In this document: positions 15,001-18,000 of the stretch, one piece after another | How positions within the stretch are numbered: the first letter of the stretch is position 1 | How the letters are laid out: each line of letters opens with the position of its first letter | Source: Escherichia coli | GTDB taxonomy: Bacteria; Pseudomonadota; Gammaproteobacteria; Enterobacterales; Enterobacteriaceae | Length of the DNA: 64,000 nt | NCBI RefSeq assembly: GCF_030384885.1 | Contig: NZ_CP128613.1 | Reading direction: 5' to 3' (one strand) | Made by a program: the position numbers

Positions 15001-18000
15001 GCTGGCCGGAAACCGCATTAACGCGCGAGTTGGCACGCCATCCAGCCTTTGTGAACCGCGATGTGTTCCCAATTATTGCCGACCGTCTGACTCAGAAGCA
15101 GCTTTTCGACAAGCTTCACCTGCCGACCGCACCGTGGCAGTTACTTGCCGATCGCAGTGAGTGGCCTGCGGTGTTTGATCGTTTAGGTGAACTGGCGATT
15201 GTTAAGCGTCGCACTGGTGGCTATGACGGTCGCGGTCAATGGCGTTTACGCGCCGATGAAACCGCACAGTTACCGACTGAATGCTACGGCGAATGTATTG
15301 TCGAGCAGGGCATTAACTTCTCTGGCGAAGTATCGCTGGTTGGCGCGCGCGGCTTTGATGGCAGCACTGTGTTTTATCCGCTGACGCATAACCTGCATCA
15401 GGACGGTATTTTGCGCACCAGCGTCGCTTTCCCGCAGGCCAACGCACAGCAGCAGGCGCAGGCCGAAGAGATGCTGTCGGCGATTATGCAGGAGCTGGGC
15501 TATGTTGGCGTGATGGCGATGGAGTGTTTTGTCACGCCGCAAGGTCTGCTGATCAACGAACTGGCTCCGCGTGTACATAACAGTGGTCACTGGACGCAAA
15601 ACGGTGCCAGCATCAGCCAGTTTGAGCTGCATCTGCGGGCGATTACCGATCTGCCGTTACCGCAACCGGTAGTGAATAGTCCGTCGGTGATGATCAACCT
15701 GATTGGTAGCGATGTGAATTATGACTGGCTGAAACTGCCGCTGGTGCATCTGCACTGGTACGACAAAGAAGTGCGTCCGGGCCGTAAAGTGGGGCATCTG
15801 AATTTGACCGACAGCGACACATCGCGTCTGACCGCGACGCTGGAAGCATTAATCCCGCTGCTGCCGCCGGAGTATGCCAGTGGCGTGATGTGGGCGCAGA
15901 GTAAGTTCAGTTAACCTGGTACTCATATTCCTGCCGGATGCGGCGTGAACGCCTTATCCGGCCTACTAATCCGGTACCCATTGTAGGCCTGATAAGACGC
16001 GTCAAGCGTCGCATCAGGCATGGTGCGCCGATTACCGGATGCGGCGTGAACGCCTTATCCGACTACCAATCCGGTACCCATTGTAGGCCTGATAAGACGC
16101 GTCAAGCGTCGCATCAGGCATGGTGCGCCATATGCTGGATGCTCCCATCACGACAGCGAAATACAGGTCCCCGCTTCGCCCGCCAGCGTCTCTTCAATCC
16201 GCGATAACGCCCCAATCCACGCAGGTTTACCACGGCTTCTGACATAGCCACTCACCGCCGTTACCTTCGGTCCCATCGCCCCATCGGCTTTGGCAAATGG
16301 CGCTAACTCATCCGGTGTGGCATGGCGAATGGCGCGTTGCTGCGGCGTTCCCCAGTTTTCATAAACCGCGTCAGCATCGGTGAGGATCACCAGTCCATCG
16401 GCATTAATCTGCTCGGCAAGCAACGCCGCGGCGAGATCTTTATCAATCACCGCTTCACTCCCTGCTCCGTCATCCGTCACCGGAACACCGCCGCCGCCAC
16501 TGCAAATCACCACATGCCCCTCTTTGAGCAACAACTCGATGGCTTCGCTGTCGAGAATTTTACGAGGCTGGGGAGATGCCACCACCCGGCGTAAATATTT
16601 GCCATCACGCTTCATTTTCCAGCCGTAAGCCGTTTCCAGTGCCTCTTGTTCTTCTGGCTGATAAACCGGGCCGATAAACTTCTCTGGCTGCAAAAACGCC
16701 GGATCATCAGACGAAACCTCAATGCGCGTCAGCACCGTCGTGACAGGCGGCATCTGCGGCTGTGCGCTCAAGCTCTGCGCCAGCATATAGCCAATCATCC
16801 CCTGGCTTTCCGCCACCAGCACATCCAGTGGATACGGTTCGACCTCTTTCCACGCCAGATTCTGTAACGCCAGCAGCCCCACCTGTGGCCCGTTGCCGTG
16901 AACAATCGCCAGCCGATAAGCACGCGCCAGGCGCGCCAGCGCGGGAACAGCACTGGCAATATTGCGATATTGATTTTCTGCCGTCAGCGCCTCACCGCGC
17001 TGGAGTAAGGCATTGCCCCCAAGAGCTACAACCAGTGTTTTCATGGTGTTCCTTGTAATAATTGTTGACCAAGCCAGAACCCCAGCAGCGTATCGGCCCC
17101 TGACGTATGCCCCAGCGCCAGCAGCGAATCAATCGCAACAGCGGTACGTTTCGGGCAACTCAGAGCATGAACAAAGTGCAGGAGTGGCGAGGCGAAATAT
17201 CCTTGCGCGGCATAACGCAAATAATTAACGCTCACCGCTGTGGTAACGAGTTGAAGATTGTCGGAACAGGCAAAAAACGGGCGACCGGAGCGCGCATCTA
17301 AAGCGCCATAATACCAGGCTGCCAGCAGCATTCCCGTTAGCGTGTCATCATGACTCGGCGTTAATCCCGGCCCTTTACCCAGCCAGTGCCGCCAGTCGGT
17401 CTTAACGCCATTGAGCGCGGCCTGAAAACAGTGACGAAACTGGCGTAATTCAGCAGGCAGCGGATCGCCTGCCGCCAACGCCAGCGGCCCGAAAAGCCCG
17501 GTTTCCTCCGCGCGTTGCATCCATGCCGCTGCAAGCGGTTGAGGATGCGCAGGCGGCGTAATACGCAGCAAACAATAACGCTGTGGCTGTTTAACCGTGA
17601 AACGCCCGAGGCGAATCCCTTGAGCTACAACCTGTGGTCGTTCATTGCCGCATAATCCACCGCATAACGCATCGAATTGCGCGCGGCGAAGCACCCATCC
17701 TCCGGGACCGAAACCACTTCCCTGACGATGTAGCGTTAACAGTTCGCCACTTTCCGTCAGCAGATTAATCGCTCGCCGCCAGATGCCCGCTAACCGCCAG
17801 GACTGGCGATAGTCTGGTGCACTACGGCTGGCAAGCAGAGGATGGATCATCGTCATTGCGCGTTCCTCAACCAATACCCATGCTTTCAGCCAGAGCTTCC
17901 AGCGCCTGTTCAAAGCACGCCAGCGGTGCCCGCACAGTGCCTGCACCAATCTGCCCGATACCCGCCTCTTTATGGGCGATACCCGTATTGATGAGTGGTG

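What the first reader, a model, noticed from the sequence alone, without database searches (positions are those of the whole stretch)
15933..16131. Tandem duplication of a ~100-bp REP/BIME unit between purK and ybcF
Seen in sequence: two nearly identical ~100-bp units, each with a REP palindrome pair, sit in tandem in the convergent intergenic region. Copy number of such units varies between strains and they can act as transcription attenuators or mRNA stabilisers and as targets for IS insertion.
Basis: seen in the sequence. Interest (0 to 1): 0.25.

Follow-up and report, generated by a model that had tools for sequence, protein, structure and literature searches.

The report
Duplicated REP repeat block after purK
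The tandem repeat is real: it is an ordinary E. coli BIME-2 element (pairs of REP hairpins) between purK and ybcF, present here as a rare two-unit version of a locus that carries one to five units in other strains.

Summary
Window 15933-16133 contains two head-to-tail copies of a 100-bp unit, 95-96% identical. Each unit is a Y-type REP, a 16-nt linker, an inverted Z2-type REP and a 14-nt linker. This is a BIME-2 with four REP hairpins. It fills the 233-bp gap between the convergent genes purK and ybcF (carbamate kinase), where no intrinsic terminator was found. Unit number at this locus varies across 5,426 complete E. coli genomes. I saw one unit (132-138 bp, e.g. O157), a K-12 form with three REPs (194 bp), two, three and five units (533 bp, e.g. 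S65EC), and a BIME-free 152-bp allele in 238 genomes. The window's own two-unit allele was seen in only 6 genomes. It arose within a different sequence family of units from the one that gave the other 2-, 3- and 5-unit alleles. One-unit alleles have a 13-bp direct repeat on each side of the unit, which would allow slippage or unequal crossover. The function is inferred from the family only: protection of mRNA 3' ends, partial Rho-dependent attenuation and gyrase binding. The finding is ordinary and already known in kind, so interest is low.

The parts
14847..15914 (+). purK (5-(carboxyamino)imidazole ribonucleotide synthase), upstream convergent gene. Stop codon TAA at 15912-15914, 18 nt before the first REP.
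   Evidence: ORF list; RefSeq annotation under the 100%-identical match.
15933..15966 (+). Y-type REP of unit 1, GCCGGATGCGGCGTGAACGCCTTATCCGGCCTAC, with CTAC at its 3' end on the + strand.
   Evidence: Sequence; exact-pattern match; hairpin of -21.3 kcal/mol with an internal mismatch.
15967..15982 (.). Short 16-nt linker, TAATCCGGTACCCATT, between the CTAC/GTAG ends of the two REPs of unit 1.
   Evidence: Sequence. This linker is specific to the locus and allele family.
15983..16019 (+). Z2-type REP of unit 1, GTAGGCCTGATAAGACGCGTCAAGCGTCGCATCAGGC, inverted relative to the Y REP.
   Evidence: Sequence; hairpin of -21.8 kcal/mol; covered by the Rfam naRNA4 (Z2-l-Y) match.
16020..16033 (.). 14-nt l-type linker, ATGGTGCGCCGATT, at the junction between unit 1 and unit 2.
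   Evidence: Sequence. It lies in the middle of the full-length naRNA4 model match at 15986-16064.
16034..16066 (+). Y-type REP of unit 2, ACCGGATGCGGCGTGAACGCCTTATCCGACTAC. A 1-nt deletion and a substitution at the stem foot weaken the hairpin.
   Evidence: Unit alignment; hairpin of -15.3 kcal/mol versus -21.3 for unit 1.
16067..16082 (.). Short 16-nt linker of unit 2, CAATCCGGTACCCATT.
   Evidence: Sequence; alignment.
16083..16119 (+). Z2-type REP of unit 2, identical to the Z2 of unit 1.
   Evidence: Sequence; fold.
16120..16142 (.). Right edge: l-like linker ATGGTGCGCCATAT followed by a 9-nt remnant of a further Y REP, GCTGGATGC. The remnant is the right-hand copy of the short direct repeat that brackets the unit.
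   Evidence: Comparison with one-unit alleles, which end in GATTGCCGGATGC.
16148..17044 (-). ybcF (carbamate kinase), downstream convergent gene. Stop codon TGA at 16148-16150. It is one codon longer than in most strains.
   Evidence: ORF list; annotations giving 897 nt versus 894 nt.
16146..16290 (+). C-rich, G-poor stretch on the purK read-through strand just downstream of the BIME. It is a possible Rho loading region (inferred only).
   Evidence: C/G ratio of 2.1-2.4 in 78-nt windows, against window-wide 95th and 99th percentiles of 1.73 and 2.25.

Best explanation
The feature is a BIME-2 element: four REP palindromes arranged Y-Z2-Y-Z2 in alternating orientation with short linkers. It lies in the shared 3' region of the convergent genes purK and ybcF. 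The two-unit state is a rare copy-number allele, seen in 6 of 5,426 complete E. coli genomes. It most likely arose by duplication of the 100-bp Y-linker-Z2-linker unit through replication slippage or unequal recombination between the short direct repeat that brackets the unit. That repeat is the start of the Y REP on the left and a truncated Y start on the right. REP-associated transposase (TnpA-REP) recombination is an alternative route. The following functions are inferred from the family, not shown at this locus. When transcribed from either gene, the REPs fold into stable hairpins. These hairpins block 3'-to-5' exonucleases and so define and stabilise the mRNA 3' ends. They also act as leaky, partly Rho-dependent attenuators that limit read-through into the antisense strand of the opposite gene. 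On DNA, the Y REPs are preferred gyrase sites. Extra units would add redundant hairpins and probably change this only quantitatively.
For: Shown here:
- Tandem structure and REP anatomy.
- The Rfam model for the 77-nt Z2-l-Y unit (naRNA4, RF02564) matches its full length at 15986-16064 (-), with 73.1 bits against a gathering score of 59.5.
- The linkers are 14 and 16 nt, and no IHF-consensus match at up to 1 mismatch falls in the interval.
- No intrinsic terminator was found in 15500-16600 on either strand, so the BIME is the only strongly structured element between the genes (folds at z = -5.9 and -6.2).
- There is an allelic series of 1, 2, 3 and 5 units plus a truncated K-12 form.
- The window-type allele occurs in six independently assembled genomes from five countries.
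- In O157 the single unit is flanked on both sides by a perfect 13-bp direct repeat, GATTGCCGGATGC.
- The window's units are 92-96% identical to single units of the same allele family and 80-89% identical to units of the other family, which shows independent expansions.
- A C>G stretch lies downstream on the purK strand.

From the literature:
- BIME-2 is defined as y + z2 in tandem copies whose number varies between strains at a given locus, and TnpA-REP recombines BIMEs in vitro (PMC3333891).
- REP hairpins resist exonucleases and mark the 3' ends of Rho-dependent transcripts (PMC6061677).
- REP325 acts as a partial Rho-dependent terminator and as a stabiliser, and a four-hairpin construct yields transcripts containing about 2, 3 or 4 hairpins (bioRxiv 10.64898/2026.03.23.713779).
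- Gyrase cleavage is enriched in BIME-2, more in y than in z2 REPs (PMC6379681).
Against: No transcript, 3'-end, half-life or gyrase data were found for this locus. Every functional step is therefore an extrapolation from other REPs. The 2026 preprint stresses that REP effects depend on context and that terminal REPs are not generally associated with longer half-lives (section list). About 4% of genomes (238) have no BIME here at all, and the most common alleles have one unit or three REPs. Neither the element nor its copy number is therefore required. The duplication mechanism is inferred from the flanking direct repeat and was not observed.
Confidence: 0.9

Rival explanations
1. The element is selectively neutral repeat DNA. 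The BIME is a non-autonomous, RAYT-dependent selfish or domesticated element, and its unit number drifts by slippage with no measurable effect on purK or ybcF.
For: Unit number ranges from 0 to 5 across strains, with no sign that any one state is required. The Y REP of unit 2 has decayed from -21.3 to -15.3 kcal/mol. In MFDS1022581 the Y REP of unit 1 carries three substitutions that, by my manual pairing, are not compensatory. The literature reports variable and often absent REP effects (bioRxiv 10.64898/2026.03.23.713779).
Against: A BIME of some form is kept at this site in about 95% of genomes, in both allele families. No other terminator-like structure exists in the gap. This rival concerns only whether copy number matters. 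It is compatible with the anatomy described in the best explanation.
Confidence: 0.35
2. The element is a small-RNA gene. The Z2-l-Y junction created by the duplication would encode an naRNA4-like nucleoid-associated RNA that binds HU and helps condense the chromosome.
For: The Rfam naRNA4 model matches its full length above the gathering score at 15986-16064 (-). naRNA4 is by definition one Z2-l-Y unit of a BIME-2 (PMC4550694).
Against: The model describes a repeat unit shared by many BIME-2 loci, so the match shows family membership and not a distinct gene. No promoter-like site lies next to the unit. naRNA4 itself is at REP325, between yjdM and yjdN, which is a different locus. The chromosome-compaction role was not reproduced in the 2026 preprint.
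Confidence: 0.03
3. The duplication is an assembly artefact: a single unit duplicated by misassembly of repetitive reads.
For: REPs are high-copy repeats, with a median of 34 matching places per genome, and such repeats can confuse assemblers.
Against: The same two-unit allele, with the same unit-specific differences, is present in six complete genomes from different laboratories and countries. The two units differ at several positions, which a collapse or expansion error would not produce.
Confidence: 0.01
4. The region is protein-coding: the 89-aa ORF at 15938..16207 (+) that runs through the repeat would be a real gene.
For: The ORF exists.
Against: The ORF is made of REP palindromes and the antisense strand of ybcF. 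No RefSeq annotation calls a gene there in any of the 21 fetched records. Its length would change or it would disappear with unit number. I did not run a protein search on it.
Confidence: 0.01

Closest known systems
BIME-2 family of E. coli REP clusters (Gilson/Bachellier/Hofnung nomenclature, as summarised in PMC3333891)
   Same: Y and Z2 REPs alternate in orientation. Linkers are short, units are tandem, and unit number differs between strains at the same locus. The location is extragenic, at the 3' ends of genes.
   Different: Nothing essential differs. The linker sequences are specific to this locus, and the Y REP of unit 2 carries a 1-nt deletion at its foot.
REP325 / naRNA1-6, the 12-hairpin BIME-2 between yjdM and yjdN (PMC4550694; bioRxiv 10.64898/2026.03.23.713779)
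   Same: It has the same Z2-l-Y unit, and the Rfam model built on it matches here above threshold. The four-hairpin size is equivalent to the 'naRNA34' construct, which gave transcripts ending after 2, 3 or 4 hairpins.
   Different: This element has 4 hairpins rather than 12. It sits between convergent genes rather than inside an operon. No expression or HU-binding data exist for it.
The K-12 MG1655 allele of the same purK-ybcF gap (NC_000913.3 551333-551526)
   Same: Same locus, same allele family of units, and the same first Y-linker-Z2 unit (91-92% identical).
   Different: In K-12 the second Y REP is truncated to GCCGGATGCGGCACCGG, giving three REPs in 194 bp. The right-hand junction with ybcF also has a different sequence.
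BIME-1 / RIP-RIB elements (Y-L-Z1 with an IHF site)
   Same: They are built from REPs of the same superfamily. A likely example lies in the same window at 37853-37950.
   Different: BIME-1 is single-copy, with a long linker carrying an IHF site and a Z1 REP. Here the linkers are 14 and 16 nt, no IHF consensus is present, the second REP is Z2, and the units are tandem.

Membership tests
E. coli REP (palindromic unit) | An imperfect palindrome of 30-40 nt with a conserved GTAG tetranucleotide 5' to the stem foot (CTAC on the complementary strand). | tested here: met
   All four elements are 33-37 nt. GTAG is at 15983 and 16083, and CTAC is at 15963-15966 and 16063-16066. The definition is in PMC3333891.
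E. coli REP (palindromic unit) | A stable hairpin with a conserved mismatch or internal loop in the stem. | tested here: met
   Folds range from -15.3 to -21.8 kcal/mol, each with an internal unpaired position, and z-scores from -4.3 to -5.1 on the + strand.
E. coli REP (palindromic unit) | Extragenic location and many dispersed copies per genome. | tested here: met
   The element lies between the stop codons of purK and ybcF. The query matches a median of 34 places per E. coli genome. Further copies lie in the window at 37853 and 46392.
BIME-2 | Composed of y and z2 REPs in alternating orientation. | tested here: met
   The Y sequence is matched exactly. The Z2-l-Y covariance model (RF02564) matches positions 1-77 of 77 with 73.1 bits, above the gathering score of 59.5. 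The composition of the naRNA4 unit is given in PMC4550694. My distinction of Z2 from Z1 by consensus sequence rests partly on memory.
BIME-2 | Short linkers, with no long L linker carrying an IHF site. | tested here: met
   The linkers are 16 and 14 nt. No WATCAANNNNTTR match at up to 1 mismatch falls within 15915-16147.
BIME-2 | Occurs as tandem copies whose number varies between strains at a given locus. | tested here: met
   There are two units here. Other E. coli genomes have 1, 2, 3 or 5 units at the same locus.
BIME-2 | Bound and cleaved by DNA gyrase in vivo. | not testable with these tools
   This is a family property (PMC6379681). purK and ybcF do not occur in the supplementary files of that paper that are held as text.
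naRNA4 sRNA (Rfam RF02564) | Sequence and structure match at or above the gathering score. | tested here: met
   73.1 bits against 59.5.
naRNA4 sRNA (Rfam RF02564) | It is the transcript of the fourth unit of REP325, between yjdM and yjdN. | tested here: not met
   The locus here is purK-ybcF, whereas REP325 lies between yjdM and yjdN. The match is a paralogous repeat unit and not that gene.
naRNA4 sRNA (Rfam RF02564) | A discrete RNA that binds HU. | not testable with these tools
   No expression data are available for this locus.
Intrinsic (Rho-independent) terminator | A G+C-rich hairpin followed directly by a U tract. | tested here: not met
   No terminator-like sites were found in 15500-16600 on either strand. 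None of the REP hairpins is followed by a T run.
REPtron (REPs flanking a tnpA-REP/RAYT gene) | A RAYT gene lies next to the BIMEs. | tested here: not met
   The gap is 233 bp with purK and ybcF directly on either side, so there is no room for a transposase gene.

The most novel reading that the evidence does not exclude
The purK-ybcF BIME-2 may form a natural allelic series (0, 1, about 1.5, 2, 3 and 5 units, arising independently in two unit families) in which unit number sets how much purEK transcription reads into antisense ybcF and how stable each mRNA is. Copy number would then act as a lineage-specific expression dial. The identical C-to-G change in both Z2 copies of strain RMDEC465 would reflect gene conversion that keeps the units alike.
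Probability: 0.15. Interest if true: 0.3.

Novelty: already known. Interest (0 to 1): 0.1.

Why it matters
It matters little on its own. The finding is a textbook BIME-2 copy-number polymorphism and requires no new biology. Its modest value is practical. The locus offers a ready-made series of natural alleles, from no BIME to ten hairpins, between a moderately expressed purine operon and a weakly expressed convergent gene. That series could be used to test whether REP dosage changes termination and mRNA stability, a question the recent REP literature still calls context-dependent. The length polymorphism (119 to 533 bp) is also a simple PCR marker that separates E. coli lineages. Annotators should note that the Rfam naRNA4 model matches generic BIME-2 units, so such matches should not be annotated as an sRNA gene.

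Tried and rejected
- **Locus-specific literature:** no paper in the library holds purK, ybcF and REP together. Supplements of the gyrase-site paper, the E. coli 3'-end paper and the Rho Term-seq paper (none held) gave nothing. The 2026 REP preprint's supplements list purK and ybcF only in differential-expression tables.
- **IS insertion:** matches that covered only one flank looked like possible IS insertions. All four that I fetched were five-unit BIMEs of 532-533 bp with no IS.
- **Exact counting of unit classes:** match coverage does not work for this, because one record unit can align to several query units. I relied on two systematic samples instead. Exact counts were possible only for the non-BIME allele (238 genomes) and for the top-ranked window-type allele (6 genomes).
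- **REP annotation in K-12:** the RefSeq MG1655 record in this collection lists no repeat features at the locus.
- **Z2 pattern search:** a pattern with a 12-nt interior missed the local copies, whose interior is 13 nt.
- **sRNA, ORF and assembly-artefact readings:** considered and rejected, as set out under the rival explanations.
- **Not attempted, as not worth the cost for an ordinary element:** large metagenome or GTDB scans to date the element outside E. coli, and a protein search on the 89-aa ORF.

Full report
**1. The observation**

The sequence at 15933-16142 contains two head-to-tail copies of a 100-bp unit. Tandem Repeats Finder reports 15934-16129, period 100, 2.0 copies, 96% matches and score 371. 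The gap-free repeat finder recovers the same structure in two blocks, at spacings of 100 and 101. The two spacings reflect a 1-nt deletion in the second unit.

The ORF at 14847..15914 (+) is purK and the ORF at 16148..17044 (-) is ybcF, a carbamate kinase. This follows from the RefSeq annotation under a 100%-identical match to E. coli 2013C-4282, NZ_CP027579.1. The genes converge and the gap between their stop codons is 233 bp.

**2. Anatomy**

Each unit has four parts, read directly from the sequence:
- a Y-type REP (15933-15966 and 16034-16066; GCCGGATGCGGCGTGAACGCCTTATCCGGCCTAC);
- a 16-nt linker;
- an inverted Z2-type REP (15983-16019 and 16083-16119; GTAGGCCTGATAAGACGCGTCAAGCGTCGCATCAGGC);
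- a 14-nt linker.

After the second unit comes a 9-nt remnant of a further Y REP, GCTGGATGC (16134-16142).

All four REPs carry the GTAG/CTAC tetranucleotide at the stem foot. Each folds into a hairpin with an internal mismatch, at -21.3, -21.8, -15.3 and -21.8 kcal/mol as + strand RNA, with similar values on the - strand. The weaker third hairpin results from the GGCC-to-GAC change at the foot of the second Y REP.

The whole 256-nt region is much more structured than shuffled sequence on both strands, with z = -5.9 and -6.2. Single-REP hairpins and longer Y:Z2 pairings are close in energy.

No intrinsic terminator and no convincing promoter were found in 15500-16600. No IHF consensus match at up to 1 mismatch falls in the gap.

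Rfam's naRNA4 model (RF02564) matches its full length at 15986-16064 (-), with 73.1 bits against a gathering score of 59.5. The match covers the Z2 of unit 1, the 14-nt linker and the Y of unit 2. naRNA4 is defined as one 77-nt Z2-l-Y unit of the 12-hairpin element REP325 (PMC4550694). The match therefore classifies this repeat as the same kind of unit. It does not identify an sRNA gene here.

**3. Comparison across E. coli**

A 1301-bp query matched 5,425 of 5,426 complete genomes. The distance between the two flanks varies among them. I fetched 21 records, which showed the following gap lengths.

| Gap length | Structure | Examples |
|---|---|---|
| 132-138 bp | one unit | O157:H7 FRIK804, APEC E123, ETEC1738, 06-00048, UPEC 26-1 |
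| 194 bp | Y-Z2, truncated Y, Z2 | K-12 |
| 204 bp | K-12-like with the other right edge | DETEC-S565 |
| 233 bp | two units, window type | 2013C-4282 |
| 232 bp | two units, other type | SMS-3-5 |
| 332 bp | three units | S1-KEN-07-A |
| 532-533 bp | five units | Eco-15, S65EC, WGS1363, APEC E12049 |
| 119 and 126 bp | rearranged forms | SCU-301, UID2309220031 |
| 152 bp | no BIME | Survcare321 |

A systematic sample down the ranking gave 58 informative rows. By match span they divide into:
- about 22 one-unit alleles;
- 18 K-12-type alleles;
- 3 of the 204-bp type;
- 5 SMS-3-5-type two-unit alleles;
- 3 BIME-free alleles;
- 8 split matches, the pattern given by the five-unit alleles;
- 1 other.

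Split matches of this kind occurred in both samples. Two from each sample were fetched, and all four proved to be five-unit alleles. The earlier 40-row sample agrees with these proportions.

The BIME-free allele could be counted exactly: 238 genomes. The window's own two-unit allele is the top-ranked class and occurs in only six genomes. These come from the USA, Viet Nam, Tibet, Thailand and Korea (two), at 97.9-100% identity over 633 bp. The five whose sequences I compared (the window and four fetched records) share the same unit-2-specific differences. That pattern rules out an assembly artefact. It also suggests a single duplication that predates the divergence of these strains.

**4. Origin of the duplication**

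Unit sequences fall into two families. Family A has the linker ..CCGGTACCCAT and the Z2 loop TCAAGCGTCG; it includes the window, O157, K-12 and APEC E123. Family B has the linker ..ACACCG(A/C)C and the loop CCAGCATCG; it includes UPEC 26-1 (1 unit), SMS-3-5 (2), S1-KEN-07-A (3) and the five-unit alleles.

The window's two units are 95% identical to each other. They are 92-96% identical to single family-A units and only 80-89% identical to family-B units. Expansion therefore happened independently in both families.

In one-unit alleles the unit is bracketed by a direct repeat of the Y-REP start. In O157 this is a perfect 13-bp repeat, GATTGCCGGATGC, on both sides. That is the expected substrate for replication slippage or unequal crossover, and I infer this as the mechanism. 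The literature offers an alternative: in vitro strand exchange between BIMEs by the REP-associated transposase TnpA-REP, proposed to explain variation in BIME-2 copy number (PMC3333891).

**5. Likely function**

Nothing was measured at this locus. I found no 3'-end, half-life or gyrase data for it. The explanation below comes from the family.
- REP hairpins resist 3' exonucleases and often mark the steady-state 3' ends of Rho-terminated transcripts (PMC6061677).
- REP325 acts both as a partial Rho-dependent terminator and as a stabiliser of the upstream mRNA. A four-hairpin construct yields transcripts ending after about 2, 3 or 4 hairpins. About 30% of convergent gene pairs in E. coli carry a REP (bioRxiv 10.64898/2026.03.23.713779).
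- Gyrase cleaves BIME-2 elements preferentially, at y more than at z2 REPs (PMC6379681).

Three local features fit this picture. The BIME is the only structured element in the gap. Both genes would transcribe into it. Just downstream on the purK strand, at about 16146-16290, lies a C-rich, G-poor stretch with a C/G ratio of 2.1-2.4, at the 95th-99th percentile of the window. Such a stretch is what a Rho loading site looks like.

The first REP starts 18 nt after the purK stop codon. From memory (Liang, Rudd and Deutscher, Mol Cell 2015; not checked here), REPs within about 15 nt of a stop codon can depress translation. This one lies just outside that range.

A second unit probably adds only redundancy. 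Whether copy number has any effect is open, and the neutral reading remains a serious rival.

**6. Comparison with what is known, and verdict**

Every defining feature of an E. coli REP and of a BIME-2 that could be tested was met. These are the GTAG-flanked imperfect palindromes, the Y/Z2 alternation, the short linkers without an IHF site, the tandem units and the copy-number variation between strains. The last of these is stated as a general property of BIME-2 in PMC3333891.

The element is not an intrinsic terminator (no U tract), not a REPtron (no transposase gene) and not the naRNA4 gene (different locus).

The finding is a correct reading of an ordinary, already-known kind of element. 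The specific two-unit allele is rare (6 of 5,426 genomes) but unremarkable. Interest is low, at about 0.1. My confidence of 0.9 applies to the identity and the copy-number polymorphism. The functional steps are inferred from the family and are less certain.

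Noticed in passing
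window 37853-37950: A second REP cluster of a different type: a Y REP, a 36-nt linker containing an IHF-like site (ACTCAATATATTG, 37899-37911) and a short Z1-like REP. It looks like a single-copy BIME-1.
   Followed up: partly
window 46392-46480: A third REP cluster: a Z2 REP, a 16-nt linker and a Y REP, forming a single BIME-2-like pair that is not duplicated.
   Followed up: partly
window 16148-16153 (ybcF 3' end): In the window's lineage the usual ybcF stop codon TAG is TCG (Ser), and the gene ends one codon later at TGA. The gene is 897 nt here against 894 nt in most strains.
   Followed up: partly
L006:716-867 (E. coli Survcare321; also NU14): 238 of 5,426 genomes have no BIME between purK and ybcF. 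They carry an unrelated 152-bp sequence instead. Its inner ~50 bp (CCCTCACCCTAACCCTCTCCCCACAGGGGCGAGGGGAC) is a dispersed short repeat that resembles what I recall as 'box C'; I did not test that.
   Followed up: partly
L011 (E. coli RMDEC465), equivalent to window 15998 and 16098: The same C-to-G substitution occurs in both Z2 copies, exactly 100 bp apart. This is either gene conversion between the tandem units or a systematic sequencing error.
   Followed up: no
window 16146-16290 (+): A C-rich, G-poor stretch (C/G 2.1-2.4, 95th-99th percentile of the window) lies on the strand antisense to the ybcF 3' end, just downstream of the BIME. It is a possible Rho loading region for purEK read-through.
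   Followed up: partly
window 24229-24295 (-), 37316-37404 (-), 2638-2711 (-): Rfam gathering-level matches to STnc480 (85.5 bits), AgrB (51.9 bits) and a tRNA (72.1 bits) elsewhere in the window.
   Followed up: no
L015:1702-2031 and L016:1702-2031: The strains carrying five-unit alleles (Eco-15, S65EC) have an extra 330-nt hypothetical gene between lpxH and purE. The window and K-12 lack it.
   Followed up: no
L017 (E. coli SCU-301) 201-319: This allele shares the window's distinctive left flank (GGTACTCATATTCCT). Its gap is only 119 bp, with one Y REP followed by an unrelated segment and a K-12-like right edge. It looks like a rearranged relative of the window's lineage.
   Followed up: no
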